Positions 17,423 to 42,423 of a stretch of DNA of 64,000 nt are shown in pieces (the first letter of the stretch is position 1; each line of letters opens with the position of its first letter). This DNA comes from an uncultured bacterium (lineage in GTDB: Bacteria > Omnitrophota > Gorgyraeia > Ghiorseimicrobiales > Ghiorseimicrobiaceae). Where the stretch lies: positions 110 to 64,109 of the forward strand of contig CAJVXN010000005.1 in the NCBI GenBank assembly GCA_913009335.1, read 5' to 3'. The position numbers and the translations under genes were made by a program. The notes beneath the pieces were generated by a model that saw only the letters and a program-made list of their open reading frames with translations, was not told the origin of the DNA and searched no databases.

Positions 17423-17772
17423 TATTCCCTAAAGAATTATATCAACCGATAGCAAGATTTATTCAGCGTGTAATTGATAAACCTACCTTGTGGGATATAG
17501 ATAAATATTCTAAAGATGAAATACCGAAAGAACTTCTCCTTGATGAATATACTATTGAATTAGGGAAGTTTATTATGATGGGCGAAGAAGATTATTTTAA
17601 AGATATAATACCAGTGAGAATGTATGGAAATAAAAGAGTTAATATTAGTAAAGATGAAATAAAAAAAATTGCTTTAAAAAAATTTGAATTAATAGGAAAA
17701 GTTCAAAAAGGCGAAAAAGTTTTAATAAGCGATGATTTTCGCGGGATTGATAAAATTCTAATACAAAAATGA
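17416..17772 (+). CDS. hypothetical protein
   Basis: 118-aa ORF overlapping the stop of the upstream gene. Confidence 0.45.
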   Translation: MLIFPKELYQPIARFIQRVIDKPTLWDIDKYSKDEIPKELLLDEYTIELGKFIMMGEEDYFKDIIPVRMYGNKRVNISKDEIKKIALKKFELIGKVQKGEKVLISDDFRGIDKILIQK

Positions 17773-18362
17773 AATCAAGTTATATAGAAAATAATTACGG
17801 AGAAGTATTCGAAACATTAATAAAATGCTTTCGTTATCCGCTAGCAGTTGAATTAGGCGTACTGGATGGATATAGTACTATTCATATTGCAAAAGCGTTA
17901 CATATAAATAAACTAAGATGGAATGTACACGGGCGGCTTGACTCTTATGATCTTTGGGAAGATTATCCATATAGGCATGGAACTATGCAAGACGTGCAAA
18001 AAGAAATAGAGAAAGCCGGAGTATCTGATTTTATAAATCTGTATAAAGGAGATGCTTTTAAAGTTGCGGATATATATCAAGACAGATCCATACATTTTCT
18101 CCATGTTGATATTTCTAACACCGGAGATGTATTAAAACGGATTATGGAAGTATGGGATAAGAAAATATACCAAGGCGGTATGATAGTAATTGAAGGCGGA
18201 TCAGAAGAACGCGACAATGTTGAATGGATGATTAAATATAATAAAGTTCCGATAAAGCCAGAATTAGAATCAAATTTAATAATTAAGAAGAACTATGTTT
18301 ATGGCACATATAATGCGTTTCCAAGTTTAACTGTTATTTATAAAAAGTTTGATTATGCCTAA
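17769..18362 (+). CDS. class I SAM-dependent O-methyltransferase-like
   Basis: motif I LAVELGVLDGYSTIHIAKAL, acidic motif HFLHVDISNTGD. Confidence 0.6.
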   Translation: MKSSYIENNYGEVFETLIKCFRYPLAVELGVLDGYSTIHIAKALHINKLRWNVHGRLDSYDLWEDYPYRHGTMQDVQKEIEKAGVSDFINLYKGDAFKVADIYQDRSIHFLHVDISNTGDVLKRIMEVWDKKIYQGGMIVIEGGSEERDNVEWMIKYNKVPIKPELESNLIIKKNYVYGTYNAFPSLTVIYKKFDYA

Positions 18363-19057
18363 TGGAGAACAGCGATATGGAAAAAACTAAAATTCAAATC
18401 CATAGTGATGAATTCCATAAGATTTGGGACAAAAAAAAATTATGGCAAGAAGTAAGTTGGCTGGGAATAGGAATGTGGAAATTACCTTTCGATGCATTTA
18501 TAATTCAGGAATTACTTTTTAAAGTCCAGCCAGACTTTGTAATTGAAACAGGAACGAACTTTGGCGGATCGTCTTTATTCTACGCTAGCATATTAAAACT
18601 TATAGGCAAAGGAAGAGTTATAACTATTGATATAAAAGATAAAGCATCCGGCATAGATGAAATCAAGAGTCGATTAGATCTTTCTATTACGCGTGTAATA
18701 GGTGATAGCGTATCAAATGAAACATATAAACAAATGTTAAGCATTGCCGGAGCTAATAAAACATTTTTTGTGATCCTTGATTCCTGGCACACTAAAGAGC
18801 ATGTACTGAAAGAATTAAGAATATATTCTCATTTAATACATATGGGTTCTTATATAATTGTTGAAGATACTCATGTAAGCGGACATCCAATAAAATGGAA
18901 ATGGGGAGACGGACCTTATGAAGCGGTGCATGAATTTTTACAAGAAAATTCTACATTTGCAGTAGATAAACGCTGCGAGAAATTGGCAATGACATTTAAC
19001 CCTTGTGGGTTTTTACGCAAAGTACTACATGGAGGAAGACATAATGGAGATTCATAG
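18362..19057 (+). CDS. CmcI/cephalosporin-hydroxylase-family methyltransferase (sugar O-methyltransferase type)
   Basis: FVIETGTNFGGSSLFYASILK ... VILDSWHTKEHV ... IVEDTHVSG pattern of the CmcI family. Confidence 0.7.
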   Translation: MENSDMEKTKIQIHSDEFHKIWDKKKLWQEVSWLGIGMWKLPFDAFIIQELLFKVQPDFVIETGTNFGGSSLFYASILKLIGKGRVITIDIKDKASGIDEIKSRLDLSITRVIGDSVSNETYKQMLSIAGANKTFFVILDSWHTKEHVLKELRIYSHLIHMGSYIIVEDTHVSGHPIKWKWGDGPYEAVHEFLQENSTFAVDKRCEKLAMTFNPCGFLRKVLHGGRHNGDS

Positions 19058-19733
19058 CGGCAGTCAAGATACTTATGAAAAGGTTGGAACGTTTGCCGGC
19101 GAAGAGCTTCCTTTCTCTAAATATCTTCGTTGGGATAGGATGGGCCTTCTTGCTATCCTTGCTGATTTTTATTTAAACTATTCTAAAGGAAATATTTTAG
19201 AAATAGGCGCCGGTGAAAGCACTGTTTATTTTAGCTGGCTGGCCAGAAAATACAATAGGCAGGCATTTTTTTGTGATATACAACAAAGCATATATGTTAA
19301 TGCTTTAACGGTTGATGGATATTTTCAAGGAGAGCATATAATAATTAGAGAGGGAGAAGATAAAACAAATATAAAATCAAATTTTCCAAATACGATATAT
19401 ATCGGAGATTCTACTAAAATGTTTAAAGACATTAATTTACCATCATTAGCAGTGGCCTTGATAGATGGCGGCCATATGTACGAACAGGTCAAAAAAGATT
19501 TTTGGAATATCTTTCCTTTAATAGAAGAAACAGGAGCGATATTTCTGCATGATTTGAATCCTCCTAACGAGGAATATCACAATGAAAATTTATGTGGTAC
19601 AGGATTTCGTTTGCGCAAAGAATTAGAAGAGAATAAAGATTTAGATGTTTTTACATTTGTTAGGTCCGCTATTAACGTAGGTCTTACCATGGTTAGAGTA
19701 CGTAATAAAAATAGGAAATATTTTCAAGCATGA
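19044..19733 (+). CDS. class I SAM-dependent methyltransferase-like
   Basis: ATG 19044 after GGAGGA RBS; motif I ILEIGAGESTVYF; ALIDGGHMYEQV. Confidence 0.55.
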   Translation: MEIHSGSQDTYEKVGTFAGEELPFSKYLRWDRMGLLAILADFYLNYSKGNILEIGAGESTVYFSWLARKYNRQAFFCDIQQSIYVNALTVDGYFQGEHIIIREGEDKTNIKSNFPNTIYIGDSTKMFKDINLPSLAVALIDGGHMYEQVKKDFWNIFPLIEETGAIFLHDLNPPNEEYHNENLCGTGFRLRKELEENKDLDVFTFVRSAINVGLTMVRVRNKNRKYFQA

Positions 19734-20779
19734 TTACAGGATTAGATAAAAAATTAGCTGGAATGGAACAATTTAAAGATACTAACTTTATGGATCGCGG
19801 CCATGATGATGTTAACTGGTTTGATCTTTCAATGAACCATAATAGCAGGCCGTATGATTTCGACACTGTAATTTTAGTAACCAGTCATAAGGGTCATTTA
19901 CCATTTCTTAAACATACATTGAGGCAATATAGATTGACAGGGAAGTTTGTTCTCTGCGCTTTTGATAGCCCATTTAATGGAATGAGCGCGTTAGGGCAGG
20001 AACAGATGAAAACTAATTTCCTACGCCCCGACCATTTGGCCCTCGCTCACTCCTGGGTATTTAAACATCAGACTTTTGACGCGCCGAAAAGAAATGGCTG
20101 GTTTTGGGATATCCGTTACGCTCAAGGAATAATTAATTTATTTCCTAATCTCAAATATGTTTTCTGCGTTAACGGAGACGGATTGTGGGAGAAACCCGAA
20201 GGCGTAGATGATATTATAAAACTATTAGGCGACAATGATTTAATGTCGCAAGCTTCTGATAGTTCAAAAGGTTCTCCAGGGTCAATACATACGGCTAGCG
20301 TAATTTATAAAATAGACGCATTCAATAAGATACTTGAATATATGATTGATTGCATGAAAGTCCCTATTATCGGTTCAAACAGCGCGGAAGTGTTATTAAG
20401 AGATGCAGTATCATTGTTAGAATTAAAAGAAGGAATTGCTCCAAAGCAGCCGATATATCCGCAGGACGGCTCGATTGATATGTATGCTTGTTATAATCAG
20501 GATAGTACATGGAAAGATATTCTTGGATTTCGAAATCTTCCGGCAGAGATGGAAACAGCTTGTGAAGAAAGATTAGAACCATTAGATAAAAAATACATAG
20601 ATGATTTCGGAGATTATATTTATCTTTCCAGTTATGAACGGAATACAATCTGTAATTATTACAGGACTGAAGATAGAAGATATATTTATCAGTATTGGGA
20701 TCAATCGGCAGATAGTTGGTGGGATAGGAGATTCTATAGTATAGAATACTATGGTAGGGAGCCTATTTATGCAAAATAG
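19730..20779 (+). CDS. hypothetical protein, paralog A (possible GT-A-like transferase)
   Basis: shares YVFCVNGDGLWEKPEGVDDIIKLLGDNDL with paralog B (YIYCANGDCILEKPENFHMLIEKLGDADI). Confidence 0.5.
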   Translation: MITGLDKKLAGMEQFKDTNFMDRGHDDVNWFDLSMNHNSRPYDFDTVILVTSHKGHLPFLKHTLRQYRLTGKFVLCAFDSPFNGMSALGQEQMKTNFLRPDHLALAHSWVFKHQTFDAPKRNGWFWDIRYAQGIINLFPNLKYVFCVNGDGLWEKPEGVDDIIKLLGDNDLMSQASDSSKGSPGSIHTASVIYKIDAFNKILEYMIDCMKVPIIGSNSAEVLLRDAVSLLELKEGIAPKQPIYPQDGSIDMYACYNQDSTWKDILGFRNLPAEMETACEERLEPLDKKYIDDFGDYIYLSSYERNTICNYYRTEDRRYIYQYWDQSADSWWDRRFYSIEYYGREPIYAK

Positions 20780-20946
20780 AGAAGTAAGAATTACTATGAA
20801 AAAACAAACTATCATTTTATTGTTAATGGATGATAATGAAGAAGTAACAGGTAGAAATGTTAAAGTAGTTGAAGATTTAGAAACGGTAGAACGAGAATTA
20901 AAATTTTTGGTAAAAGCTTGCTTACATCAAATAAAAAGGAGTAGAG

Positions 20947-21867
20947 ATGGGTTGGATAAGAAAAGATCTGGATGATCCAAATTTAAGCGCGGAAGATAGG
21001 GCGGCAGGAGAACAGGTCTTAAAAAATTTTATGGCCAATGATACATGGACTAAAAAAATCTTTAAAGACGTAGGAATACTTTTGACATCGCATCCAGGCA
21101 ACCGGCCATATTTAAAAGGATCAGTTGAATCGCATAAAAAGACTGGATATTGGATTTGTCTATCTTATGATAACTATATAAACCCGGAACATGCAGCAGT
21201 TGATTATAATTCAATTATGCCGTCTAAAGATGTGATGGATAATATAGATACATTCGTAATGCCGCATCACCAGACCTGGGGCGGAGTTTTATTCCCTTAT
21301 TTTTGGCTGCTTAAAGTCGGCATTAATACGTTATTAGATTTTAAATATATATATTGCGCTAACGGAGATTGCATACTTGAGAAGCCGGAAAATTTCCATA
21401 TGTTAATAGAGAAATTAGGCGATGCCGATATTTTAGGCTGCGGGCCAGTTAAAGATAATTCTTTTAATACGGCCGGCATGTTTGCAAAGACTTCCGCGCT
21501 GAAAGCTATGATACAGCATTTTCAGGATCATTTTATCCCTTTCGAGGTTTATGAGAAATATACGCTTGATATAGGAAATACAGAGGGCCGATTTGCTAAG
21601 GCGATAAAAGATTTAGGATTAAAAGTCGTAACTGTTTCAGAACCTTGTGATGAGCAGATGGGCAGAGTTGAACAGGGTTGGTGGTATGAAAATCTGGGCT
21701 TCAAACACATACATGCTTTGCATAATATAGCCTATCGATATAAAGGGATTCCTCCACATCATAAATATCTTGATAATAGATTCGTAGGGGGTGAATATGA
21801 AACAATTAAAAAATATCATGAAACAGGGGATAAAAAATTATTGGAAGAATGGTGGGTTAAATCTTAA
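20947..21867 (+). CDS. hypothetical protein, paralog B
   Basis: paralogous to 19730..20779 over several blocks (LTSHxGxxPxLK; NGDxxxEKPE; LGDxD). Confidence 0.5.
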   Translation: MGWIRKDLDDPNLSAEDRAAGEQVLKNFMANDTWTKKIFKDVGILLTSHPGNRPYLKGSVESHKKTGYWICLSYDNYINPEHAAVDYNSIMPSKDVMDNIDTFVMPHHQTWGGVLFPYFWLLKVGINTLLDFKYIYCANGDCILEKPENFHMLIEKLGDADILGCGPVKDNSFNTAGMFAKTSALKAMIQHFQDHFIPFEVYEKYTLDIGNTEGRFAKAIKDLGLKVVTVSEPCDEQMGRVEQGWWYENLGFKHIHALHNIAYRYKGIPPHHKYLDNRFVGGEYETIKKYHETGDKKLLEEWWVKS

Positions 21868-21887: not shown

Positions 21888-22415
21888 ATGAAGAATTTAG
21901 TACCGATTAAAGTCAAAATAGGCCTACGTGCTAATGGACACGCGGATCATCCGGATTGGCATAGACTGCCGCTTGCTGCGGCATCAGACCCGGCATCGCA
22001 TATGTTTTTCGGCTGGAAGTATGATAAGACATGCGGCCATAAAGAAGAAGGAATTGATAGTCCTTATGGTATGCAGTGGGGTATGCTTTTTGTTACAAAG
22101 CAATTTGCGATTGAAGCGAAACAGGTTTTCCCCGCATTGGTAACTGAATTAACAGAAGCCGAAGCGGATGCTTTTTGGAATGATAAAGCTTATGCTCATA
22201 TGCCTGAAAATAAAGTTGACAATGATCAGCTGCAAGCGTTAAAGAATGAATTAATTTTAAGAAAAGAAGCCGGTTTATCAACCGTTGATTTAATTGTTAA
22301 GATAAAAAAGGCGCTTGATGTCGATGATACATTCCCAGGATTACAAAAGAACCATATGAAAACATTTGCTTTAGCAAAACAGAAGTTAGGATTGAATATA
22401 GTGCCAAGCGAATAA
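21888..22415 (+). CDS. hypothetical protein
   Basis: 175-aa ORF with AAGGAGGAG RBS. Confidence 0.5.
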   Translation: MKNLVPIKVKIGLRANGHADHPDWHRLPLAAASDPASHMFFGWKYDKTCGHKEEGIDSPYGMQWGMLFVTKQFAIEAKQVFPALVTELTEAEADAFWNDKAYAHMPENKVDNDQLQALKNELILRKEAGLSTVDLIVKIKKALDVDDTFPGLQKNHMKTFALAKQKLGLNIVPSE

Positions 22416-22424
22416 AATAAATAT

Positions 22425-23657
22425 ATGAATAAACAAAATTTAATTCAAAATGCGATTATTTTTCAACAACCGATTTATCATTTTGCAGCGCAGCTTTTAG
22501 AAAAAAGTAAACTAAAGGCTGTGCTTGATATCGGCTGTAGTTATCCAAAAAAGTTAGAAAAATTTATTCTTCCTTTAACTTCGGATATTACAGGGATAGA
22601 TTTACCGGAAACAATTAAACTGGTAACAAGTGAAGTAAATTTTGGATCATGGATTTCTTGTGATATAGAAAAAGATAAAATAGAATTAAATAAGAAATTT
22701 GATTTAATCATTTGTTCCGATATAGTGGAACATCTTGATAATCCTGAAAAATTATTTTCTTTGATTGAAAAATGCAGTAATGACGATACTTACATTTTAA
22801 TTTCTACCCCTGACGCTACATCTACATTGAAACAATCTAATGGTAGGCCCGCGAATATTCTGCATAAAAGAGAATGGGATAGGGTTAATTTTGAGAATTA
22901 TTTAAAAAAAAGCGGATTTGATATATTGCAGAGTAAATATTATATAGAACAAAATTGCCATCCGACTTATATCTGTAATTATTTTTTATGTAAAAAATCA
23001 AATATAAGAAAAAAACATATTTTAATTACAGTGCCTAATGTACACTGGATACACCAACATGTTACGCACAGGCTTTTAATGCTTCAAAAAGATATCCGCT
23101 ATAATTTAACATTTAAACTTCCTTCACATAAACCTTATGTGAATAATTTACATCATATAGTCAATGATTTTATCTCGGGAAATTATGATTTCTGGTTGAA
23201 TATCGATGCTGATAATCCGCCTCAAGAAAATCCTCTTGATTTAATTGAATTAGATAAAGACATTATAGGGCTACCTACTCCCATTTGGCATTTTACGAAT
23301 AAAGGAAACAATGAGAGGCCTGTATACTGGAATGCTTATGATTATCTTTCAGAAAAAGACGCTTATGCTGAACATGAACCAAAAAAGGGATTACAGAAAG
23401 TTGACGCGGTAGGGACAGGTTGTATTTTAATCGCGCGCAGAGTATTTGAAAATCCTATTATGCGGCAAGGCGCATTTATGCGTAAATGGAATAAAGACGG
23501 CACAGTAGATAAAGGAAATGATATGGCTTTTGCCGAAATAGCAAGGAATCAGGGATTTAATATTTATGCTCATTATGATTATCCTTGCGACCATATGTCG
23601 GAATTATCTTTAAATGAAACAGTAAGGGCTTTTACTAATTTATTTGAGGCAAAATAA
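22425..23657 (+). CDS. bifunctional methyltransferase / GT-A-like glycosyltransferase (putative)
   Basis: N-terminal class I MT motifs VLDIGCSYP ... FDLIICSDIVEHLDNPEKLF; C-terminal DADNP and DAVGTGCILIARRVF resemble the DxD and acceptor regions of GT-A transferases. Confidence 0.55.
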   Translation: MNKQNLIQNAIIFQQPIYHFAAQLLEKSKLKAVLDIGCSYPKKLEKFILPLTSDITGIDLPETIKLVTSEVNFGSWISCDIEKDKIELNKKFDLIICSDIVEHLDNPEKLFSLIEKCSNDDTYILISTPDATSTLKQSNGRPANILHKREWDRVNFENYLKKSGFDILQSKYYIEQNCHPTYICNYFLCKKSNIRKKHILITVPNVHWIHQHVTHRLLMLQKDIRYNLTFKLPSHKPYVNNLHHIVNDFISGNYDFWLNIDADNPPQENPLDLIELDKDIIGLPTPIWHFTNKGNNERPVYWNAYDYLSEKDAYAEHEPKKGLQKVDAVGTGCILIARRVFENPIMRQGAFMRKWNKDGTVDKGNDMAFAEIARNQGFNIYAHYDYPCDHMSELSLNETVRAFTNLFEAK

Positions 23658-26395
23658 TGAATACTCCGTGGTGCGGCGCCCAAGAAGACAAACTTTATCT
23701 TCAATCCGGGCAGTTCAGTTCTACTTTAAAGACTAGTTTAAGTATTGTGAATTTAGATTATACTCCTTACGGAATTTCCTGGGATGGCACTGACACTCCT
23801 TGGTGTGGTCATACAGTTGGTACTCTTTGGCTTCAATCCGGGCAATTCAGCTCTACTTTAAAGACTAGCTTATATGTAGGAGGGGTCGACACGGATCTTT
23901 ATGGAATTTCCTGGGACGGTACAAATACTCCTTGGTGCGGCTATCAAGGAGGCAAACTCTATCTTCAATCAGGTCAATTCAGTTCTACTTTAAAGACTTC
24001 ATTATATATAGGAGGGGTTGATAACGACCCTGAAGGTATTTCTTACGATGGTACTAATACTCCTTGGGGTGGTTGGACTAATAGTAAACTCTATCTTCAA
24101 TCCGGGCAGTTCAGTTCTACTTTAAAGACTAGCTTATCAATAGTTACAAACCCAAGTGGTATAACTTACGATGGTACTAATACTCCATGGAGTAGTTATA
24201 CAACAGATAAACTCTACCTTCAATCCGGGCAATTCAGTTCTACTTTAAAAACTAGTTTATATGTTGGAGCAGTTGATACGGCACCTGGTGGGATAAGTAC
24301 AGATGATATAAATGCAAGATTAAGCGGGGCTTCAAGCTCTTCCAGCTCTTCAAAATCTTCTTCGAGTTCTTCTTCTAGTATAGGCAGCTCAAGCAGTTCG
24401 AGTCTTTCATTAAGCTCAAGCTCATCAAGTAGTTCTACTTTGCCGGCAGCAGCTTCGACCAATACTCCGTGGTGTAGTGGTTTTGCTGGTAAAATGTTTC
24501 TTCAATCCGGGCAGTTCAGTTCTACTTTAAAGACTTCAGTATATACAGGAGGAATTGATACAGGTATAGGAGGTATTTCATGGGATGGAACCAATACTCC
24601 TTGGTGCGGTTTTACGGATGATAAACTCTACCTTCAATCCGGGCAATTCAGCTCTACTTTAAAGACTAGCTTATATGTAGGAGGGGTCGACACGGATCTT
24701 TATGGAATTTCCTGGGACGGTACAAATACTCCTTGGTGCGGCTCCCAAGAAGACAAACTCTACCTTCAATCAGGTCAATTCAGTTCTACTTTAAAGACTT
24801 CACTGAGTATAGTTACGATTATTAGGGGAATATCTTCTGATGGTTTTAATACTCCTTGGTGCGGCTATCAAGGAAGCAAACTCTATCTTCAATCTGGGCA
24901 GTTCAGCTCTACTTTAAAGACTTCATTATATATAGGAGGAATTGATTTAGGCGTTTGGGGTATATCTTGGGACGGTACTGATACTCCTTGGTGTGGAAAA
25001 GAGGCAGATAAACTCTACCTTCAATCAGGGCAATTTAGTTCTGTATTAAAAACATCGCTTGATATTAGTGGAGTTGCTATTAACCCTCAAGGTATCACCA
25101 CAGACGATATAAACGCGAGATTAAGCGGGGCTTCCAGTAGTTCAAGCAGCTCAAATAGCTCTAGCAGTTCAAGCAGTTCAAATAGCTCTAGCAGTTCTAG
25201 TTCTTTAAGTAGCTCAAGTTCAAGCAGTTCATTAAGCTCTAGTTCTTCGAGTAATTCAAGCAGTTCCAGCAGTTCCAGTTTATCTAGTTCAAGCAGTTCA
25301 AATAGCTCTAGCAGCTCAAGCAGTTCAAATAGCTCTAGCAGTTCTAGCAGTTCAAATAGCTCAAGTTCAAGCAGTTCATTAAGCTCTAGTTCTTCCAGTA
25401 ATTCTAGTAGTTCCAGCAGTTCCAGTTTGTCTAGCTCAAGCAGTTCAAATAACTCTAGCAGTTCAAGTAGTTCAAATAGCTCTAGCAGTTCAAGTAGTTC
25501 AAGCTCTTCCAGTAATTCAAGCAGTTCCAGCAGTTCTTTGAGTTCTAGTTCTTCTAGCAATTCTAGCAGTTCGAGTAGTTCCAGTTTATCTAGCTCAAGC
25601 AGTTCAAATAGTTCTAGCAGCTCCAGCAGTTCATTAAGTTCTAGTTCTTCCAGCAATTCTAGTTCTTCAAGCAGTTCTAGTTTATCTAGCTCAAGCAGTT
25701 CAAATAGTTCAAGCAGTTCAAGCAGTTCATTAAGCTCTAGTTCTTCCAGTAATTCTAGTAGTTCCAGCAGTTCCAGTTTATCTAGTTCCAGCAGCTCAAA
25801 TAGCTCTAGCAGTTCAAGCAGTTCAAATAGCTCTAGCAGTTCAAGCAGTTCATTAAGCTCTAGTTCTTCGAGTAATTCAAGCAGTTCTAGCAGTTCCAGC
25901 AGTTCATTGAGTTCCAGCTCTTCCAGTAATTCAAGCAGTTCTAGCAGTTCCAGTTTGTCTAGTTCCAGCAGTTCAAATAGCTCTAGCAGTTCAAGCAGTT
26001 CATTAAGCTCTAGTTCTTCGAGTAATTCAAGCAGTTCCAGCAGTTCCAGTTTATCTAGTTCAAGCAGTTCAAATAGCTCAAGCAGTTCCAGCAGTTCAAA
26101 TAGCTCTAGCAGTTCTAGCAGTTCAAATAGCTCTAGCAGTTCAAGCAGTTCATTAAGTTCTAGTTCTTCGAGCAGTTCATTAAGTTCTAGTTCCTCAAGC
26201 AGTTCTAGCTGGCCAAGTTCATCTAGCAGTTCATCTAGTTCGAGAAGTTCTAGTTCTTCATTAAGTTCTAGCAGTTCATCAAAGTCAAGCAGTTCGTCGG
26301 CCTCTCTATTTGAGAAATTAGTTTATTTCAGTGATGAAACATATAATTATGAAATGAGTGAAGATACAAGCAATTATGAATTCGCGGCACAGTAA
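23657..26395 (+). CDS. repeat protein: about 12 x 40-aa NTPWCG/KLYLQSGQFSSTLKTSL/GISWDGT repeats, two poly-Ser segments (second about 390 aa), short acidic C-terminus
   Basis: direct reading of the ORF translation; repeats visible at both DNA and protein level. Confidence 0.7.
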   Translation: MNTPWCGAQEDKLYLQSGQFSSTLKTSLSIVNLDYTPYGISWDGTDTPWCGHTVGTLWLQSGQFSSTLKTSLYVGGVDTDLYGISWDGTNTPWCGYQGGKLYLQSGQFSSTLKTSLYIGGVDNDPEGISYDGTNTPWGGWTNSKLYLQSGQFSSTLKTSLSIVTNPSGITYDGTNTPWSSYTTDKLYLQSGQFSSTLKTSLYVGAVDTAPGGISTDDINARLSGASSSSSSSKSSSSSSSSIGSSSSSSLSLSSSSSSSSTLPAAASTNTPWCSGFAGKMFLQSGQFSSTLKTSVYTGGIDTGIGGISWDGTNTPWCGFTDDKLYLQSGQFSSTLKTSLYVGGVDTDLYGISWDGTNTPWCGSQEDKLYLQSGQFSSTLKTSLSIVTIIRGISSDGFNTPWCGYQGSKLYLQSGQFSSTLKTSLYIGGIDLGVWGISWDGTDTPWCGKEADKLYLQSGQFSSVLKTSLDISGVAINPQGITTDDINARLSGASSSSSSSNSSSSSSSSNSSSSSSSLSSSSSSSSLSSSSSSNSSSSSSSSLSSSSSSNSSSSSSSSNSSSSSSSSNSSSSSSSLSSSSSSNSSSSSSSSLSSSSSSNNSSSSSSSNSSSSSSSSSSSSNSSSSSSSLSSSSSSNSSSSSSSSLSSSSSSNSSSSSSSSLSSSSSSNSSSSSSSSLSSSSSSNSSSSSSSSLSSSSSSNSSSSSSSSLSSSSSSNSSSSSSSSNSSSSSSSSLSSSSSSNSSSSSSSSSSLSSSSSSNSSSSSSSSLSSSSSSNSSSSSSSSLSSSSSSNSSSSSSSSLSSSSSSNSSSSSSSSNSSSSSSSSNSSSSSSSSLSSSSSSSSLSSSSSSSSSWPSSSSSSSSSRSSSSSLSSSSSSKSSSSSASLFEKLVYFSDETYNYEMSEDTSNYEFAAQ
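25130..26300 (+). repeat. 48-nt (16-codon) tandem repeat encoding [L S6 N S8]n
   Basis: periodic agcagttcaagcagttcaaatagctctagcagttc... units; antisense reads LELLEL artefact ORFs. Confidence 0.8.
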
Positions 26396-26406: not shown

Positions 26407-27045
26407 ATGATTTCTAAAGCTAAAAAATTAAAATTATGGAAAGAATTAAATAAAGATCACTGTCTTCGATATGATAAAGAATATAGAAAAACACACCATA
26501 AAAGTATTCGAGCCAATGCAGCTAGATATAGATTAAAGAATTTAGAAAAAGAAAGATTAAGAAAAAAAATATATATGCGTGATTATAGCAAAAGACAAAC
26601 AAGCATAGAAAAAGAAATCGCATGGAGATTAAATAATGTTAAAAAATTAAAAACATATAGAATAAAACATAATAAAAAGAATATAGAAAAAATTAGAAAT
26701 TATCAAAGAGCATATAGAAAAAGATATACTAAAAAGAATATAGAAAAAATTAGAAATTTTCGAAGAATATATAAATATAATTTAAAAAAAGCAGGTAAAC
26801 TAACTATTCAAACAATTCAAAAAGTCTATGAGAGTAATATTAAAAAGTATGGAACGCTTACTTGCTATCTCTGCTTAAAACCTATTAATTTTGGGCAAGA
26901 TAGCTTAGAACACAAACAACCGCTTTCTCGTAATGGTACTAATGAATGCAAGAATTTAGATATTGCTCATAGAAGTTGTAATAGTAAAAAACATTGCAAA
27001 ACATTACAAGAATGGAAGGAGGGTTTTAAAACCAATGCCGAATAG
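26407..27045 (+). CDS. HNH endonuclease (terminase-associated)
   Basis: C-terminal LEHKQPLSRNGTNECKNLDIAHRSCNSKK HNH motif; basic KKNIEKIRN repeats; directly upstream of terminase genes. Confidence 0.75.
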   Translation: MISKAKKLKLWKELNKDHCLRYDKEYRKTHHKSIRANAARYRLKNLEKERLRKKIYMRDYSKRQTSIEKEIAWRLNNVKKLKTYRIKHNKKNIEKIRNYQRAYRKRYTKKNIEKIRNFRRIYKYNLKKAGKLTIQTIQKVYESNIKKYGTLTCYLCLKPINFGQDSLEHKQPLSRNGTNECKNLDIAHRSCNSKKHCKTLQEWKEGFKTNAE

Positions 27046-32246: not shown

Positions 32247-34850
32247 ATGAAGTTTCTGCAAAACACTATCGCATCATTTTTAGAAAGCACATCTTCCGGA
32301 AATAGATGGAAGGTGATGATAATTGAAGAAGGCCTTTCTAAAAACGGTAAATTCTACACGAAAGAAGCCCTCCAGAAATCAATTCCTCTTTTTGAAAAAT
32401 CAAAAGTTTGTTTCTATGAATGGAAAGGTAAACAATTCGATCATATTCCATTATCAATAGAAAAAATGCGCCCGGAAGGATTCCCGCTGCAGACAGCAGG
32501 ATGGCTCGATAATGTTAAATTCGAAACCATTAAAGTTGAAGGCCGGGAAGTTACCGGCCTTACAGGAAGCCTGCATTTATTGGAGAATGACAAGGTTAAA
32601 CAATTAAAAGATACTCTTGTCAACGCATGGCAGAAGGGATTGAAGAATTTTCTGGGTTTATCAATAAACGCGGAAGGCCCATCGAGTGTGCGGATGTTAA
32701 ACGGCCAACCGATATCTGTAGTATCAGGTATAACGAAAGTATTTAGTACGGATTTTGTAACTCAACCCGCAGCCGGCGGGGGGTTACTTAAATTAATTGA
32801 AAGCTTAAACAACACAGGAGGGGAAGAAAAAATGTTTAAGAAGTTATTGGAAGCATTAAAGTTGTACAATCCAAAAATAATGGAAAGCATTGATGTTAAT
32901 AACATCACAGCAGAAGAAGTATTGAGCCTCTTTGAATCAGTTCTTAAAGAAGCCAAAGAAAAGAATTCTGATAAGGTAAAAGAAATCGAAGCCATAGTTG
33001 GCAAGATGAAAGATAAGAAATACGAAGAGGCAGAAACATTAATTAACTCCTTAGTTAAAACAAAAGAAGGCAAAAAAGAACTTTCAGATTCTGATTTGCT
33101 TGCGGCAAAAGAAGCTGAATTGAATCCTAAACAGCTTAAGAAAAAGAAAGAGCTTGAAAAAGCAAAAGCCGACGCTAAAGAAGCTGAAGAAACAGCTGCC
33201 AAAACAAAGAAAGAAGCCGAGGATCTTAAAAATAAAGATTTAGAAGGCAAAATGGCCGCTTTAGATAAGAAAATCAAGCAGAGAGAATGCAAGGATATGC
33301 TTGATTTAGCTCTTGATGAAAGTAAATTGCCTATGGCAATTCAAAATAAAATACGTAAGACATTCGCGAGTAAAGTCTTTGAATCAAAAGACTTAAAAGA
33401 ATCGATTGATCTTGAAAGATCAACATTGGCTAAATTAATTGAAAGTGGAAGCCATATTGATTTAGGCGGAGACGGCGGAGGCGGTGTATTTATCCAAAGA
33501 GAACCTGTTACGAGATTACAGGCGTCTCTTGATTTGACTCTTGGTTTCAAGCCGGAAGATATCGATGGGGATAATTATAAAGACATAGATGCCTTCGGTT
33601 CTTTAAGGGAAGCGTATGTCGCGTATACTGATGATCCGGGAATCAGCGGACAATTAGGGACCAAGGCAGTCGCAAGATTGCAGGAAGCCACAGAAGCAAA
33701 CTTTTCTTACGCATTAGGTTATTCGATGCAGAGAAGAATGCTTCCTGATTACAAGAAGCTTGATCCTCTATGGAAAAAAATAGCTATATCAGTTCCGATT
33801 AAGGATTTCAAATTACAGGAAAGAATCAGATGGGGCGGTTTTGGAGTATTGCCGACAGTCCAGAATGCAAGGACAGTTGCCGGAACGCCTATTGATTCTG
33901 CTACTCCTACTTATCCTGAACTTGGATTCCCGACTGACCAGGAAGCCACCTATGCGGTTGGCACCAAGGGCGGTATCGTTACCGTAACTCGTAGGATGAT
34001 AATTGATGATGATTTGAAGGTTCTTACGAAAATTCCCGGGAAGATAGGTAAAGCCGCGGCTATGACATTGAATCAGTTCGCGTTTGATTTGATGTTAAGT
34101 TATAATTCCTCTGGAATTAATGCGGCTACGATTTATGATAGTATAGCTCTTTATGCGACAGCGCATAAAAATAAAAGAACAGGCTCATTAGGATATGATA
34201 ACCTTTCTACTCTACTTGACGATATGTACAATCAGGCAGAGCTTGGATATAAAAGTGATAGCACTAATGATCCGTTAGCATCCGGAGGGACTACTCTTAA
34301 TGTTACAGCCGGAACTGGCCAGTATTTTAAAGCCGGTGATTTAATATGGCTGGCTGGTGAAATATGTAGAGTAGACAGCGTTTCAACCGACGCTTTAACA
34401 ATAGCAAGAGGAGTATTTGGAACTACCGCAGCACAGCACGCAATAGGCACTGATGTATGGAAGATTAGTCAGATTTTAGCGTTACAGAATCCTAATCTTT
34501 GGGTGCCTCGCAGCTTGCGCGGAACAGCTTTACAGCTGAAAAATTCTGAATTTAATCCTGAACAGTTGGAAAGAGCAGTCAACACAATAAGAGATTCATT
34601 TGAAGTAACGGATGCTACTCCGTATTTAAGAGGCGATGAAAATAACTATTATCTGTCAGCGCAGCCAGGCGACGTTGAAGGTATCGAAATAGGATTCCTA
34701 AACGGAAAAGAAGATCCAGAGTTATTAGTTCAGGATCAACCTACAGTCGGCAATGTGTTTGTGTATGATACGATTAGATATAAGGTGCGTCATGAGTACG
34801 GCGGTGCGGTTGTTGATTATCGCGCCTTTGCAGCTTCAATAGTAGCTTAA
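32247..34850 (+). CDS. major capsid protein with N-terminal protease-like and coiled-coil scaffold-like extension (putative fusion)
   Basis: 867 aa; central KE-rich coiled-coil (KKKELEKAKADAKEAEETAAKTKKEAEDLK); position between portal and tail genes; C-terminal about 450 aa of capsid size. Confidence 0.5.
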   Translation: MKFLQNTIASFLESTSSGNRWKVMIIEEGLSKNGKFYTKEALQKSIPLFEKSKVCFYEWKGKQFDHIPLSIEKMRPEGFPLQTAGWLDNVKFETIKVEGREVTGLTGSLHLLENDKVKQLKDTLVNAWQKGLKNFLGLSINAEGPSSVRMLNGQPISVVSGITKVFSTDFVTQPAAGGGLLKLIESLNNTGGEEKMFKKLLEALKLYNPKIMESIDVNNITAEEVLSLFESVLKEAKEKNSDKVKEIEAIVGKMKDKKYEEAETLINSLVKTKEGKKELSDSDLLAAKEAELNPKQLKKKKELEKAKADAKEAEETAAKTKKEAEDLKNKDLEGKMAALDKKIKQRECKDMLDLALDESKLPMAIQNKIRKTFASKVFESKDLKESIDLERSTLAKLIESGSHIDLGGDGGGGVFIQREPVTRLQASLDLTLGFKPEDIDGDNYKDIDAFGSLREAYVAYTDDPGISGQLGTKAVARLQEATEANFSYALGYSMQRRMLPDYKKLDPLWKKIAISVPIKDFKLQERIRWGGFGVLPTVQNARTVAGTPIDSATPTYPELGFPTDQEATYAVGTKGGIVTVTRRMIIDDDLKVLTKIPGKIGKAAAMTLNQFAFDLMLSYNSSGINAATIYDSIALYATAHKNKRTGSLGYDNLSTLLDDMYNQAELGYKSDSTNDPLASGGTTLNVTAGTGQYFKAGDLIWLAGEICRVDSVSTDALTIARGVFGTTAAQHAIGTDVWKISQILALQNPNLWVPRSLRGTALQLKNSEFNPEQLERAVNTIRDSFEVTDATPYLRGDENNYYLSAQPGDVEGIEIGFLNGKEDPELLVQDQPTVGNVFVYDTIRYKVRHEYGGAVVDYRAFAASIVA

Positions 34851-41730: not shown

Positions 41731-42423
41731 ATGTCATATAATCATATACTCACTCTCACTCCGGAATTCGGCATCGAAGAATCAATAGAATTCCGTACTA
41801 ATGTTACTGATTCAGAAAGCGGGAAAGAACACCGTGATGCATTGTGGGATGAAGGAATACGGGAATATAAATTAACTGTAAGATTCCTTACTAAAACCGC
41901 GATGGATTTAATATGGAATTTTTTTATCGCCAGGCATGGAAGTTTTGATTATTTTCTTACAAAGATAGAACAGGAATACGAACAGATTAATGAAGCGGTA
42001 GATACCGGCGACGGAGTAGTAACTGAATTTTTATTAGATAAATTTCCCGTAGATACAGCATCAAATCACTCGTGTAGTGTAGCCGATGTTACGAATACAG
42101 ATTATCTTTTACGTAATGATTTTAATCTTGAGAAATCTTATATTACTTTTAATAATGCTTACTCCGGAGCGATAGTAGTTTCTTATGAATATTATTTTAA
42201 AGTCCGCTTTAAAGAAGATAAATTAACCAGGCAATTAGCTGCTTATAAATTACTGCATGCTGGGATAACTTTGAAAGAGGTACGTTGGACATCTTATGGT
42301 TCAACATTAGGTAATTCTTCTTCTTCTTCAATGAGTTCTAGTTCTAGTTCCAGTTCATCTAGCTCATTAAGCTCAAGTTCTTCCAGTAGTTCTTTAAGCA
42401 GTTCAAGCAGTTCATCAGCTTAA
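41731..42423 (+). CDS. minor tail protein (lambda gpM position) with poly-Ser C-terminal tail
   Basis: synteny TMP-M-L-K-J; ends NSSSSSMSSSSSSSSSSSLSSSSSSSSLSSSSSSSA. Confidence 0.45.
   Translation: MSYNHILTLTPEFGIEESIEFRTNVTDSESGKEHRDALWDEGIREYKLTVRFLTKTAMDLIWNFFIARHGSFDYFLTKIEQEYEQINEAVDTGDGVVTEFLLDKFPVDTASNHSCSVADVTNTDYLLRNDFNLEKSYITFNNAYSGAIVVSYEYYFKVRFKEDKLTRQLAAYKLLHAGITLKEVRWTSYGSTLGNSSSSSMSSSSSSSSSSSLSSSSSSSSLSSSSSSSA

What the first reader, a model, noticed from the sequence alone, without database searches (positions are those of the whole stretch)
23657..26395. 912-aa NTPWCG-repeat protein with a 1.2-kb 48-nt Ser-codon tandem repeat, sitting between the glycosylation cluster and the packaging genes
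The protein has about twelve 40-aa repeats (TNTPWCG..KLYLQSGQFSSTLKTSL..GISWDG), each with an invariant Cys and Trp. These look like a beta-rich lectin or propeller-like module.

The repeat block is split by a short Ser tract. It is followed by an about 390-aa tract of the form [L S6 N S8]n encoded by near-perfect 48-bp DNA repeats. Both Ser tracts are preceded by the same DINARLSGASSSS junction.

This protein is a candidate dedicated glycosylation substrate (fibre or decoration), or a sugar-binding protein. The 48-bp array is an obvious copy-number-variable locus.
Basis: seen in the sequence. Interest (0 to 1): 0.75.

Follow-up and report, generated by a model that had tools for sequence, protein, structure and literature searches.

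The report
Propeller-headed polyserine phage appendage protein
A marine phage encodes a protein with two five-bladed beta-propeller heads, a short and a very long polyserine tract and a 30-residue tail; its gene belongs to a three-gene cassette (unknown 175-aa protein, glycosyltransferase-like protein, propeller protein) found in many different phages, so it is probably a sugar-decorated virion appendage, though glycosylation and virion location are untested.

Summary
The 912-aa ORF at 23657-26395 (+) is real, but several details are wrong. There are ten 41-44-aa repeats, arranged 5 + 5, not about twelve. Cys is present in 8 of 10. The DNA repeat unit is 96 nt at 83-94% identity, not a near-perfect 48 nt.

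Each block of five repeats is predicted with high confidence (pLDDT 96.9) to be a five-bladed beta-propeller. It matches no Pfam family or annotated PHROG and has no close PDB relative.

The main finding is context. In 50 of 56 informative non-redundant loci, the propeller gene is adjacent to two partners. One is a ~210-aa GT-A fold protein with a DxD motif; its nearest structures are protein glycosyltransferases (STIV A197, LH3, COLGALT1, Mimivirus R699). The other is an unknown 175-aa protein. No other neighbouring family recurs in more than 8 of 46 loci. Neighbours are mostly virion structural genes.

One propeller face is more conserved than the core strands. The regions beyond the propeller are hypervariable.

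Best reading: a virion appendage whose propeller heads are glycosylated by the partner enzyme. The 390-aa Ser tract would act as a tether, possibly O-glycosylated. None of this is biochemically shown. Five other contigs of this phage (at least three samples) all break inside the gene, so tract length and copy-number variation are unverified.

The parts
23657..26395 (+). 912-aa ORF: propeller 1, Ser tract 1, propeller 2, Ser tract 2, C-terminal tail
   Evidence: The start overlaps the upstream stop by 1 nt and has a GAGG RBS-like motif.
23657..24304 (+). Propeller 1 (aa 1-216): five blades of 41-44 aa, each TPW(C)G / KLYLQ / SGQFSST loop / LKTSL / GISWDG
   Evidence: AF2 model with pLDDT 96.9 and pTM 0.92: 20 strands, i.e. 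5 blades of 4 strands. 122 close homologs. 601 representatives at 50% clustering.
24305..24331 (+). Junction 1, DINARLSGA: short helix that closes the domain. The family motif is T[DN]DxxxR[LV]G.
   Evidence: (helix 218-222)
24332..24436 (+). Ser tract 1 (aa 226-260; 35 aa; 86% Ser), followed by the TLPAAAS linker at 24437-24457
   Evidence: Its length and composition match the polyserine linkers of carbohydrate-active enzymes (averages of 39-44 aa and 80-83% Ser; PMC2699552).
24458..25105 (+). Propeller 2 (aa 268-483): five blades. 70% protein and 74% DNA identity to propeller 1, with blades not colinear (1~8, 3~9, 2~7).
25106..25132 (+). Junction 2, DINARLSGA
25133..26302 (+). Ser tract 2 (aa 493-882; 390 aa; 87% Ser; 25 Asn and 19 Leu). 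14 exact 16-aa units. The DNA period is 96 nt.
   Evidence: Other contigs of this phage end inside it, at 25671 and 25892.
26303..26392 (+). C-terminal 30-aa tail, SLFEKLVYFSDETYNYEMSEDTSNYEFAAQ (7 aromatic, 7 acidic, 1 basic). Proposed docking peptide.
   Evidence: Short-tailed family members carry class-specific C-terminal peptides. The docking role is an inference.
23010..23657 (+). GT-A fold glycosyltransferase-like domain (aa 196-410 of the upstream 410-aa protein): conserved partner 1
   Evidence: Stand-alone orthologues of about 205-230 aa lie next to the propeller gene in 50 of 56 informative loci. Invariant WLxxDxDNPP motif. AF2 pLDDT 90.9. Foldseek best hits are STIV A197, LH3, COLGALT1 and Mimivirus R699. 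6 of 18 members hit Pfam Glyco_tranf_2_3.
22425..23009 (+). SAM-methyltransferase domain (Methyltransf_23) fused N-terminally to the GT-like domain
   Evidence: In other loci the GT-like domain is fused to Methyltransf_24 (L024) or to GT1/GT4 (L018, L033).
21888..22415 (+). 175-aa protein of unknown function: conserved partner 2 of the cassette
   Evidence: No hit in Pfam, PHROGs or PDB sequences.
13524..21867 (+). Extended sugar-modification cluster specific to this phage: DegT aminotransferase, 934-aa protein with a GT1/GT4-like C-terminus, Methyltransf_24, RMNT_CmcI sugar O-methyltransferase, Methyltransf_24, and two unknown paralogues
   Evidence: Such clusters are not a general feature near the cassette.

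Best explanation
The gene encodes a modular phage appendage (a fibre or decoration protein) that belongs to a mobile three-gene cassette.

Proposed layout:
- The two N-terminal five-bladed beta-propellers are the functional heads.
- Each head ends in a short helix (DINARL).
- Ser tract 1 is a flexible inter-domain linker.
- The 390-aa Ser tract 2 is a long hydrophilic tether or stalk.
- The 30-aa aromatic and acidic C-terminal peptide docks the protein to the particle.

Proposed mechanism:
- The co-encoded GT-A glycosyltransferase is translationally coupled and in this phage is fused to a methyltransferase.
- Helped by the 175-aa partner, it glycosylates the propeller on its invariant face. 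That face is a ring of five SGQF[ST]ST B-C loops plus the SWDGTNT D-A loops, with a near-invariant Thr and Ser in every blade.
- In this phage, the additional ~8-kb sugar cluster (aminotransferase, GT-B-like enzyme, O-methyltransferases) elaborates the glycan and may also O-glycosylate the Ser stalk. That would stiffen it like a mucin or a serine-rich-repeat adhesin.
- The result is a glycan-coated, far-reaching appendage used for adhesion or shielding.

Shown: the ORF, the repeat anatomy, the predicted propeller fold, the predicted GT-A fold of the partner, conservation of the cassette, the polarity of conservation on the propeller, and structural-module contexts in relatives.

Inferred: virion location in this phage, the enzyme-substrate relationship, glycosylation of the Ser tract, and the docking role of the C-terminal tail.
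For: 1. Fold: the AF2 model has pLDDT 96.9 and pTM 0.92, with 5 blades of 4 strands.
2. Cassette: the 175-aa gene, the GT-like gene and the propeller gene are adjacent in the window and in L001-L004. Both partners are adjacent in 50 of 67 non-redundant propeller loci. Four more loci show one partner, two lack both despite having flanks, and 11 lie at contig edges. Three contigs sampled through the GT family all contain the propeller next door. Gene orders are AGP 34, PAG 10, PAGP 5 and AGPP 1, often with 1-8 nt overlaps.
3. No other neighbouring family occurs in more than 8 of 46 loci. GC ranges from 33% to 67%, and the MAG hosts span WOR-3, Proteobacteria and Planctomycetes. The trio therefore travels together as a unit, as an enzyme and its dedicated substrate would have to.
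4. Partner enzyme: invariant DxD motif. AF2 pLDDT 90.9. The nearest PDB folds are GT-A enzymes that glycosylate proteins, or viral GT-A enzymes: STIV A197 (E 1.9e-10), LH3, COLGALT1, Mimivirus R699 and GalNAc-T. It is fused to a methyltransferase or to a second GT in several loci.
5. The B-C loops (3.23 bits) and D-A loops (2.50 bits) are more conserved than the core strands (2.0-2.5 bits). The A-B and C-D loops score 1.03 and 1.27 bits. One face is therefore invariant across phages of very different hosts. That fits recognition by a co-travelling partner better than recognition of host-specific receptors.
6. Virion association in relatives: in a census of 150 neighbouring genes, the recurrent families are virion structural ones, namely SU10 adaptor, Mu baseplate proteins, scaffold, capsid, tube, tail-fibre assembly and PKD. 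In L066 two propellers form the C-terminus of a 1297-aa protein that follows the tape measure. L052 lies between Baseplate_J and Mu Gp48. L001 and L002 lie downstream of tape-measure and beta-helix genes.
7. The propeller is always at a protein terminus (N or C). The regions beyond it are hypervariable repetitive fibres, LamG or FN3 domains, or short class-specific peptides.
8. The window and L034 (a ~450-aa SPSASA-type tract) both carry several extra GT genes.
Against: - There is no biochemical evidence of any glycan, and no proteomic evidence that the protein is in virions.
- In the window the gene lies upstream of HNH, TerS and TerL, not in the tail module.
- The conserved SG...T...S pattern could be purely structural, as the YWTD and NHL motifs are in their propellers.
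- Two loci with adequate flanks (L042, L059) lack both partners.
- L052, which has a ~100-aa Ser tract, shows no extra GT among the four neighbours tested. L004 and L001 have extra sugar genes without a Ser tract. The link between Ser tracts and extra glycosylation genes is therefore weak.
- Polyserine linkers work as plain flexible spacers in many bacterial enzymes (PMC2699552).
- The GT fold matches are only TM 0.58-0.63 at 14-16% identity.
- The 175-aa partner has no recognisable function.
Confidence: 0.45

Rival explanations
1. The propellers are lectin-type receptor-binding modules, working like the five-bladed propeller platform of S. aureus phage phi11 Gp45, which is proposed to bind GlcNAc on teichoic acid. 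They are displayed on a polyserine tether. The co-encoded GT does not modify them. Instead it modifies the host surface glycan that they recognise, for superinfection exclusion or to stop progeny being trapped on debris. This reading is compatible with the protein also being glycosylated.
For: - Five-bladed propellers are established phage receptor-binding domains (PMC4901313; PMC6795507).
- The propeller sits at a protein terminus, including the C-terminus of a large protein at the tail-tip position in L066.
- One face is highly conserved and five-fold repeated, which would suit multivalent sugar binding.
- Other family members add LamG (concanavalin-like lectin) or FN3 domains.
- In bacterial enzymes, polyserine linkers typically join carbohydrate-binding modules to other domains.
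Against: - A binding face that is invariant across phages of WOR-3, Proteobacteria and Planctomycetes hosts (GC 33-67%) is not expected of a host-specific receptor binder.
- A lectin has no obvious need to be inherited together with a soluble GT and a 175-aa protein in about 90% of loci.
- The nearest folds of the GT are protein glycosyltransferases, not envelope-glycan transferases.
- phi11 Gp45 is not among the top 50 structural matches, and there is no sequence match to it.
Confidence: 0.28
2. The trio is a non-structural intracellular enzyme complex. The propeller would be the substrate-recognition or scaffold subunit of a glycosyltransferase that modifies another target, such as capsid or tail proteins, host envelope precursors or DNA. 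The Ser tract and variable C-terminal regions would be accessory.
For: - The three genes are tightly coupled translationally.
- The two-protein GtfA/GtfB precedent shows that a non-catalytic partner can bind the acceptor (PMC6973325).
- In the window the gene sits among enzymes and before the packaging genes.
Against: - Family members reach 1000-1700 aa, with long fibre-like repetitive regions and LamG or FN3 domains. In L066 the propellers are fused to a large protein encoded immediately after the tape measure. This architecture is typical of virion fibres, not of enzyme subunits.
- Neighbouring genes are overwhelmingly virion structural.
Confidence: 0.12
3. The Ser tracts are plain flexible or entropic spacers and are never glycosylated. 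The length of tract 2 is inflated or uncertain because of assembly of a low-complexity repeat. The neighbouring sugar cluster serves an unrelated purpose, such as host or DNA modification.
For: - Polyserine linkers of about 40 aa are common unmodified-looking spacers, and tract 1 matches them.
- All five other contigs of this phage break inside the gene.
- Ser-rich tracts are rare in the family: the window, L052/L054, L034, P0253 and P0248.
- The Leu and Asn residues in the tract are single-nucleotide derivatives of Ser codons that were then amplified. This is consistent with neutral expansion of the tract.
Against: - The first ~760 nt of tract 2 are reproduced exactly in two other contigs.
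- The reading frame stays open through 1170 nt and runs into a distinct C-terminal tail.
- Mixed Ser codons, with 21-27% in-register identity between adjacent units that encode identical peptides, point to selection on the protein rather than to a simple DNA satellite.
- This rival concerns only the tract. It does not explain the cassette.
Confidence: 0.3

Closest known systems
Five-bladed beta-propeller 'platform' of the receptor-binding proteins of S. aureus phages phi11 (Gp45) and P68
   Same: A phage protein with a five-bladed, four-stranded propeller that sits on a fibre-like protein and has a proposed sugar (GlcNAc) pocket (PMC4901313).
   Different: - No sequence similarity, and Gp45 is not among the top 50 Foldseek PDB matches.
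- Gp45 has an N-terminal coiled-coil stem and a C-terminal tower, with its propeller in the middle.
- Here the blades are near-identical 44-aa repeats and the propeller is terminal and tandemly duplicated.
- It also comes with a dedicated GT and a 175-aa partner.
Serine-rich repeat glycoproteins (SRRPs: GspB, Fap1, PsrP, SraP) with GtfA/GtfB
   Same: - Similar order of parts. An SRRP has a short Ser-rich region, a binding region, a long Ser-rich region and an anchor.
- The locus carries several glycosyltransferases.
- A two-protein priming GT model exists, and the long SRR acts as a stalk that projects the binding region (PMC6973325).
- Homolog L034 has an SRRP-like SPSASA dipeptide pattern.
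   Different: - No signal peptide or AST domain: the protein starts directly with blade 1.
- No LPXTG motif.
- Nearly pure poly-Ser rather than SxSx dipeptide repeats.
- The partner GT has a GT-A fold, not the GT-B fold of GtfA plus the DUF1975 domain of GtfB.
- It is phage-encoded, and the conserved partners also occur with family members that have no Ser tract.
Polyserine linkers (PSLs) of modular carbohydrate-active enzymes (Saccharophagus, Teredinibacter, Cellvibrio)
   Same: Nearly pure Ser spacers that join carbohydrate-related modules. Tract 1 (35 aa, 86% Ser) matches the published averages of 39-44 aa and 80-83% Ser.
   Different: Tract 2 is about ten times longer (390 aa). It ends in a 30-aa tail rather than in another domain, and the context is a phage.
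Virus-encoded glycosylation of structural proteins: mycobacteriophage capsid and tail-tube glycans; STIV A197; Mimivirus R699
   Same: - Virus-encoded GT-A enzymes are thought to act on the virus's own structural proteins.
- The partner GT's best structural match is STIV A197, and Mimivirus R699 is also among its matches.
- Mycobacteriophage virion glycosylation is summarised in PMC12619734.
   Different: - In mycobacteriophages the acceptors are the C-termini of the capsid and tube subunits.
- Here the proposed acceptor is a dedicated propeller module that moves together with its enzyme.
- Nothing has been shown experimentally here.
YWTD (LDL-receptor/nidogen) and NHL (TRIM2/3/71, Brat) six-bladed propellers, and the designed Pizza and Cake propellers
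   Same: These are the best fold matches, with TM 0.60-0.67. There are weak sequence hits to the designed Cake propellers. Blade length is similar at about 42 aa.
   Different: Those propellers have six or more blades, against five here. Identity is 8-20%. No Pfam NHL, Ldl_recept_b or other propeller family is matched.

Membership tests
Beta-propeller fold (five-bladed) | Radially arranged four-stranded antiparallel blades, with the number of blades equal to the number of sequence repeats | tested here: met
   The AF2 model has pLDDT 96.9 and pTM 0.92, with 20 strands in 5 groups of 4. There are hundreds of propeller matches in the PDB.
Curated propeller repeat families (Pfam NHL, Ldl_recept_b/YWTD, WD40, Kelch, TECPR and others) | Profile match at or above the gathering threshold | tested here: not met
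   No propeller family was reported for the full protein or for aa 1-218 at E <= 0.1. PHROGs gave none for the window protein and only weak hits to the unannotated phrog_9255 for relatives.
phi11 Gp45-type receptor-binding protein | Sequence or close structural similarity to the Gp45 platform, and a stem-platform-tower architecture | tested here: not met
   No PDB sequence hit. Not in the Foldseek top 50. The architecture differs.
phi11 Gp45-type receptor-binding protein | Binds a host-surface sugar | not testable with these tools
   This needs binding assays.
Serine-rich repeat glycoprotein (SRRP / aSec substrate) | N-terminal extended signal peptide and AST domain | tested here: not met
   The protein begins MNTPWCG, which is blade 1.
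Serine-rich repeat glycoprotein (SRRP / aSec substrate) | C-terminal LPXTG cell-wall anchor | tested here: not met
   The C-terminus is SLFEKLVYFSDETYNYEMSEDTSNYEFAAQ.
Serine-rich repeat glycoprotein (SRRP / aSec substrate) | Short SRR, folded binding region, then long SRR | tested here: inconclusive
   The order is propeller, 35-aa Ser tract, propeller, 390-aa Ser tract. This is analogous but not identical, because there is an extra N-terminal propeller and the tracts are pure poly-Ser.
Serine-rich repeat glycoprotein (SRRP / aSec substrate) | Adjacent GtfA (GT-B) and GtfB (DUF1975) priming pair, plus SecA2/SecY2 | tested here: not met
   Pfam scans of the genes at 12-30 kb show no DUF1975 and no Sec components. 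The only GT-B-like element is a weak GT1/GT4-like C-terminus in the 934-aa protein.
Polyserine linker | A stretch of about 80% Ser, tens of residues long, joining two folded modules | tested here: met
   Tract 1 is 35 aa and 86% Ser and lies between the two propellers; compare PMC2699552. Tract 2 meets the composition criterion but is about ten times the typical length and joins a domain to a 30-aa tail.
GT-A fold glycosyltransferase (the partner protein, 23010-23657) | Single Rossmann-like alpha/beta/alpha domain with a DxD metal and nucleotide-sugar motif | tested here: met
   AF2 pLDDT 90.9. Foldseek matches to A197, LH3, COLGALT1, R699, GalNAc-T and SpsA. D66 and D68 are invariant within WLxxDxDNPP. 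6 of 18 members hit Glyco_tranf_2_3.
GT-A fold glycosyltransferase (the partner protein, 23010-23657) | Catalytic transfer of a sugar to a defined acceptor | not testable with these tools
   This needs an enzyme assay or glycoproteomics.
Phage tail fibre or baseplate appendage | Encoded in the tail or baseplate module | tested here: inconclusive
   Met in relatives L001, L002, L052 and L066 and in the neighbour census. In the window, L003 and L068 the gene lies shortly upstream of the terminase instead.
Phage tail fibre or baseplate appendage | Present in the virion | not testable with these tools
   This needs virion proteomics or cryo-EM.

The most novel reading that the evidence does not exclude
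Phages of many lineages share a self-contained, horizontally mobile 'glyco-appendage' cassette. It comprises a GT-A protein glycosyltransferase, a 175-aa accessory protein and a dedicated five-bladed propeller acceptor that carries five identical loop sequons per domain. Each phage plugs this onto its own virion through a lineage-specific adaptor region.

In this marine phage the module has been extended into a mucin-like or SRRP-like glycoprotein. It has two propeller heads on a 390-residue Ser stalk that offers 25 formal N-S-S sequons and about 340 potential O-sites. The stalk would be decorated with methylated amino-sugars made by the adjacent 8-kb cluster.

If so, this would be the first phage counterpart of bacterial serine-rich-repeat adhesins, and a new enzyme-acceptor pair for protein glycosylation.
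Probability: 0.3. Interest if true: 0.8.

Novelty: new variant of a known kind. Interest (0 to 1): 0.6.

Why it matters
Glycosylation of phage virions has only recently been recognised, and it affects immune recognition and adsorption.

This analysis defines an unannotated family of about 600 representative proteins. None occurs in a deposited phage genome, and no Pfam family or annotated PHROG covers it. The family comes with a dedicated enzyme partner across very different phages.

That gives a concrete, testable enzyme-acceptor hypothesis. Co-expressing three small genes should yield a glycosylated propeller. If this holds, the cassette would offer a compact, portable system for displaying glycans on a stable five-fold symmetric scaffold. 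It would also show that phages can build mucin-like tethered adhesins.

The polyserine tract is a practical warning as well. It breaks short-read assemblies of this phage in at least three samples.

Tried and rejected
- **Deposited phages:** A megablast of 12 kb around the gene and a tblastn of the propeller against 50,697 phage records found nothing. The GT partner has only ~31%-identical partial matches, in T4-like cyanophages. TerL is at most 26% identical to any deposited phage. There is therefore no cultured relative.
- **Profile searches:** Profile-to-PDB sequence searches for the GT partner and the 175-aa protein gave nothing significant. PHROGs gave nothing for the 175-aa family.
- **Locus search:** The first search for related loci attempt, with the 64-sequence alignment, failed because the alignment was too diverse. 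It was repeated with a 12-sequence alignment.
- **Structure prediction:** It was redone with database homologs.
- **Copy-number variation:** Degenerate patterns for the C-terminal tail and for the junction plus Ser start found no other copy in IMG/VR or JGI metagenomes. The exact 912-aa product is not on record.
- **Ser tracts and extra sugar genes:** The idea that they always co-occur holds only partly. The window and L034 fit. L052 does not, among the four neighbours tested. L001 and L004 have sugar genes but no Ser tract.
- **Sugar cluster as a family feature:** Rejected. Only a handful of the 150 neighbouring genes are sugar-related.
- **Promoter and terminator scan:** Uninformative, with counts equal to the shuffled controls.
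- **Antisense ORFs:** The 'LELLEL' ORFs at 24220-24462 and 25087-25656 were rejected as by-products of the Ser-codon repeats.

Full report
**1. The observation**

The ORF exists exactly as given: 23657-26395 on the + strand, 912 aa. Its ATG overlaps the stop codon of the upstream gene by one base, and GAGG lies about 10 nt upstream. An 11-nt gap separates it from the next gene, an HNH endonuclease. TerS, TerL and portal follow.

Ser makes up 438 of the 912 residues. The repeat count differs from the finding. There are ten TPW-containing repeats, not about twelve, in two blocks of five (aa 1-216 and 268-483). Eight repeats are 44 aa and two are 41 aa. Cys follows TPW in eight of ten. The Trp is present in all ten.

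Each block ends with the identical DINARLSGASSSS junction, at aa 217 and 484. The anatomy is as follows:
- Ser tract 1: aa 226-260, 35 aa, 86% Ser.
- Ser tract 2: aa 493-882, 390 aa, 87% Ser, with 25 Asn and 19 Leu.
- C-terminal tail: 30 aa, SLFEKLVYFSDETYNYEMSEDTSNYEFAAQ.

**2. The DNA repeat**

The 16-aa unit LSSSSSSNSSSSSSSS occurs 14 times exactly. The 48-nt stretches that encode adjacent units are only 21-27% identical in register. Units two apart are 83-94% identical. The DNA period is therefore 96 nt: two alternating codon versions of the same peptide. Beneath it is a 9-nt AGTTCAAGC sub-period, and TRF also reports 147- and 273-nt periods at 84-86% matches.

'Near-perfect 48-bp repeats' is therefore wrong. 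Exact repeats of at least 60 nt do exist, so recombination or slippage is plausible. Leu (TTA) and Asn (AAT) are each one nucleotide away from the Ser codons TCA and AGT. This suggests that the unit acquired point mutations and was then amplified.

**3. Assembly caveat**

The identical upstream 410-aa protein is on record in other contigs, and five were retrieved, from at least three samples. These include marine metagenome PRJDB5792 and GCA_011051015.1. The contigs are 100% identical to the window (99.97% for L077). All five end inside this gene, at window positions 23725, 24237, 24294, 25671 and 25892.

The first ~760 nt of tract 2 are therefore reproduced elsewhere. The rest of the tract, and so its total length, rest on this assembly alone. 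No other full-length copy was found in IMG/VR, in JGI metagenomes or in the gene-position index. Copy-number variation therefore cannot be assessed.

**4. Fold**

Pfam and PHROGs recognise nothing in the repeats. A homolog search found 122 unannotated metagenomic proteins. An exhaustive profile search found 601 representatives among 1.84 billion clusters, of which 207 have E <= 1e-30.

With a 64-sequence alignment, AlphaFold2 predicts aa 1-223 at pLDDT 96.9 and pTM 0.92. The model has 20 strands, i.e. five four-stranded blades, plus a short helix at DINARL.

Foldseek against the PDB gives only generic propeller matches: nidogen and LDL-receptor YWTD, TRIM NHL and the designed Pizza proteins, at TM 0.60-0.67 and 8-20% identity. 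The best viral match is an uncharacterised Lentibacter phage ICBM2 protein at 24% identity.

**5. A conserved three-gene cassette**

Four homolog contigs were compared with the window. All contain the same trio:
- (a) orthologues of window 21888-22415, a 175-aa protein of unknown function;
- (b) stand-alone ~205-217-aa orthologues of the C-terminal half of window 22425-23657;
- (c) the propeller gene, usually overlapping (b) by 1-8 nt.

Across 67 non-redundant propeller loci, 50 have both partners adjacent and 4 have one. Two lack both despite having flanks (L042, L059), and 11 are uninformative because the gene lies at a contig edge. These loci come from IMG/VR, assemblies and GTDB genomes. 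Gene orders are AGP 34, PAG 10, PAGP 5 and AGPP 1. Sampling in the opposite direction, three long contigs chosen through the GT family all carry the propeller next door.

No other neighbouring family occurs in more than 8 of 46 loci. GC content ranges from 33% to 67%. The few cellular records are MAGs of WOR-3, Gamma-, Delta- and Alphaproteobacteria and Planctomycetes. The trio therefore behaves as a mobile unit.

**6. The partners**

Partner (b) has an invariant WLxxDxDNPP motif. Six of 18 members weakly match Pfam Glyco_tranf_2_3. It has 712 homologs, a few of which JGI names 'GT2 family glycosyltransferase'.

AlphaFold2 gives pLDDT 90.9 for this domain. The best PDB matches are as follows:
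- STIV A197 (E 1.9e-10);
- the glycosyltransferase domain of collagen LH3;
- COLGALT1;
- Mimivirus R699;
- then GalNAc-transferases and SpsA.

It is thus a GT-A fold protein, and its nearest solved relatives act on proteins or are viral. The domain is fused to Methyltransf_23 in the window, to Methyltransf_24 in L024, and to GT1/GT4 domains in L018 and L033. This fits multi-step glycan building. Partner (a) has no detectable relative of known function.

**7. Where the cassette sits**

In a Pfam and PHROG census of 150 genes within 6 kb of the cassette, the recurrent families are virion structural proteins. They include SU10 adaptor, Mu-type baseplate proteins, scaffold, capsid, tube, head closure, tail-fibre assembly and PKD. 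Only a handful are GT2 or methyltransferase genes.

Individual contexts point the same way:
- In L066 two propellers form the C-terminus of a 1297-aa protein encoded right after the tape measure.
- In L052 the cassette lies between Baseplate_J and Mu Gp48.
- L001 and L002 place it after tape-measure and beta-helix genes.
- In the window, L003 and L068 it lies just upstream of the terminase.

The large sugar cluster at 13.5-21.9 kb in the window is therefore a special feature of this phage, not of the family. It contains a DegT aminotransferase, a 934-aa protein with a GT1/GT4-like C-terminus, a CmcI-type O-methyltransferase and two Methyltransf_24 proteins.

**8. Family architecture**

The propeller is always at a protein terminus. 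It is N-terminal in most members and C-terminal in a sizeable minority. One to three copies occur, and each ends in T[DN]DxxxR[LV]G.

What lies beyond the propeller is hypervariable:
- short class-specific peptides, such as a terminal FTPTAVIF in eight proteins;
- long repetitive beta-strand-like arrays;
- LamG or FN3 domains;
- rarely, Ser-rich tracts.

Ser-rich tracts occur in the window, in L052/L054 (~100 aa), in L034 (~450 aa of the SPSASA type), and in P0253 and P0248. The propeller thus looks like the conserved payload, and the rest looks like a lineage-specific adaptor or stalk.

**9. Polarity of conservation**

I mapped column conservation from the 64-sequence alignment onto the predicted topology:

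| Element | Conservation (bits) |
|---|---|
| B-C loops (SGQFSST) | 3.23 |
| D-A loops (SWDGTN) | 2.50 |
| Strands | 2.0-2.5 |
| C-D loops | 1.27 |
| A-B loops | 1.03 |

By blade topology the B-C and D-A loops share one face. This face assignment is an inference from the strand order, because I could not inspect coordinates. One face is thus more constrained than the core, and the opposite face is free to vary. Each blade contributes a near-invariant Ser-Gly, a Thr at the end of the loop, and a Ser in strand C.

**10. Interpretation**

The propeller and the GT are inherited together, across phages whose hosts and other genes differ completely. The propeller face is also invariant in all of them. 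An enzyme and its dedicated acceptor explain both facts most simply: the acceptor must keep the sequon the enzyme recognises, and neither is useful without the other.

The structural-module contexts and the fibre-like extensions argue for a virion appendage. In this phage, the two heads are followed by a 390-aa Ser tract and a short aromatic and acidic tail. This order resembles that of serine-rich-repeat adhesins, which have a short SRR, a binding region, a long SRR and an anchor, with locus-encoded GTs (PMC6973325). The protein nevertheless fails the defining SRRP features: signal and AST domain, LPXTG, and GtfA/GtfB.

Tract 1 is indistinguishable from the polyserine linkers of carbohydrate-active enzymes (PMC2699552). 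Whether tract 2 is glycosylated is open. The window and L034 have extra GTs, L052 shows none among the neighbours tested, and loci without Ser tracts can also have extra sugar genes.

The main rival is a lectin-type receptor-binding head, as in phi11 Gp45 (PMC4901313). It remains viable and is not exclusive of glycosylation.

**11. Novelty and verdict**

Phage propeller receptor-binding proteins, virus-encoded GT-A enzymes, virion glycosylation and polyserine linkers are all known. The following appear not to have been described: the propeller family, its 175-aa partner, the conserved cassette, and the extreme Ser-tethered two-headed form. I found no family annotation, no deposited phage and no paper describing them.

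I rate this a new variant of a known kind, with interest 0.6. My confidence by claim:
- the fold and the cassette: high;
- virion association: moderate;
- the enzyme-substrate mechanism: about 0.45.

Noticed in passing
window 23725, 24237, 24294, 25671, 25892 (ends of L079, L078, L077, L076, L075): Five other contigs of this phage, from at least three samples (PRJDB5792 marine metagenomes, GCA_011051015.1, ERZ1742235), all terminate inside this gene. The propeller repeats and the Ser tract break short-read assemblies. The contigs are 100% identical to the window up to their break points (99.97% for L077).
   Followed up: yes
window 23657-25105: Blade-to-blade identities are not colinear between the two propellers: blade 1 matches blade 8 at 0.93, blade 3 matches blade 9 at 0.97, and blade 2 matches blade 7 at 0.83. 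This suggests intragenic conversion or shuffling rather than a single block duplication.
   Followed up: partly
window 25133-26302: All 25 Asn residues of Ser tract 2 sit in an N-S-S context, which is formally an N-X-S/T sequon. Asn (AAT) and Leu (TTA) are single-nucleotide derivatives of the Ser codons AGT and TCA.
   Followed up: partly
window 24220-24462 (-) and 25087-25656 (-): The antisense ORFs that read LELLELLE... are by-products of the Ser-codon repeats. In L076 the gene caller called such antisense ORFs instead of the real gene.
   Followed up: partly
window 32247-34850 (+): An 867-aa protein matches both head-maturation protease and major head protein PHROGs, so it looks like a protease-capsid fusion.
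   Followed up: no
window 26407-27045 (+), with a tandem repeat at 26652-26773: An HNH endonuclease gene lies directly upstream of TerS and TerL. It contains a 57-bp tandem duplication that encodes the repeated motif KKNIEKIRN[YF].
   Followed up: no
window 19730-20779 and 20947-21867 (+): Two paralogous proteins (24% identity over ~300 aa) of unknown function lie inside the sugar cluster. Neither has a Pfam or PDB sequence match.
   Followed up: partly
window 41731-42423 (+): A glycoside-hydrolase-like protein (phrog_2913) is encoded immediately after the tape-measure gene. A lambda J-like 1282-aa central tail fibre gene follows at 43680-47528.
   Followed up: no
homologs P0011, P0013, P0022, P0065, P0066, P0114 and others: A propeller subfamily has an N-terminal CxCC motif and a C-terminus ending ...INTN[KL][RT]T[TV]G, with Gly as the last residue. 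The function of these termini is unknown.
   Followed up: no
homologs P0026, P0027, P0028, P0040, P0049, P0052, P0054, P0076: Eight short propeller proteins end in the same C-terminal peptide, (V)FTPTAVIF. Other groups share ...GGMIGRQD[VI] or ...SFIISWAA[KR]NS.ILGQGI.VS. These may be lineage-specific docking peptides.
   Followed up: partly
L067 1503-2687 and 5287-7497: A phage contig carrying the cassette also encodes an IS605 OrfB/TnpB-like protein and an intein-containing gene (Intein_splicing plus LAGLIDADG).
   Followed up: no
L052 6354-8162: A 602-aa LVIVD-repeat protein, a different beta-propeller family, is encoded two genes downstream of the cassette in a Mu-like baseplate module.
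   Followed up: no
window 12090-12440 (+): A DnaJ-domain protein is the first gene of the long + strand block. The best sigma-70-like promoter match (11834-11862, 11 of 12) and a terminator-like hairpin (11965-11986) lie just upstream.
   Followed up: no
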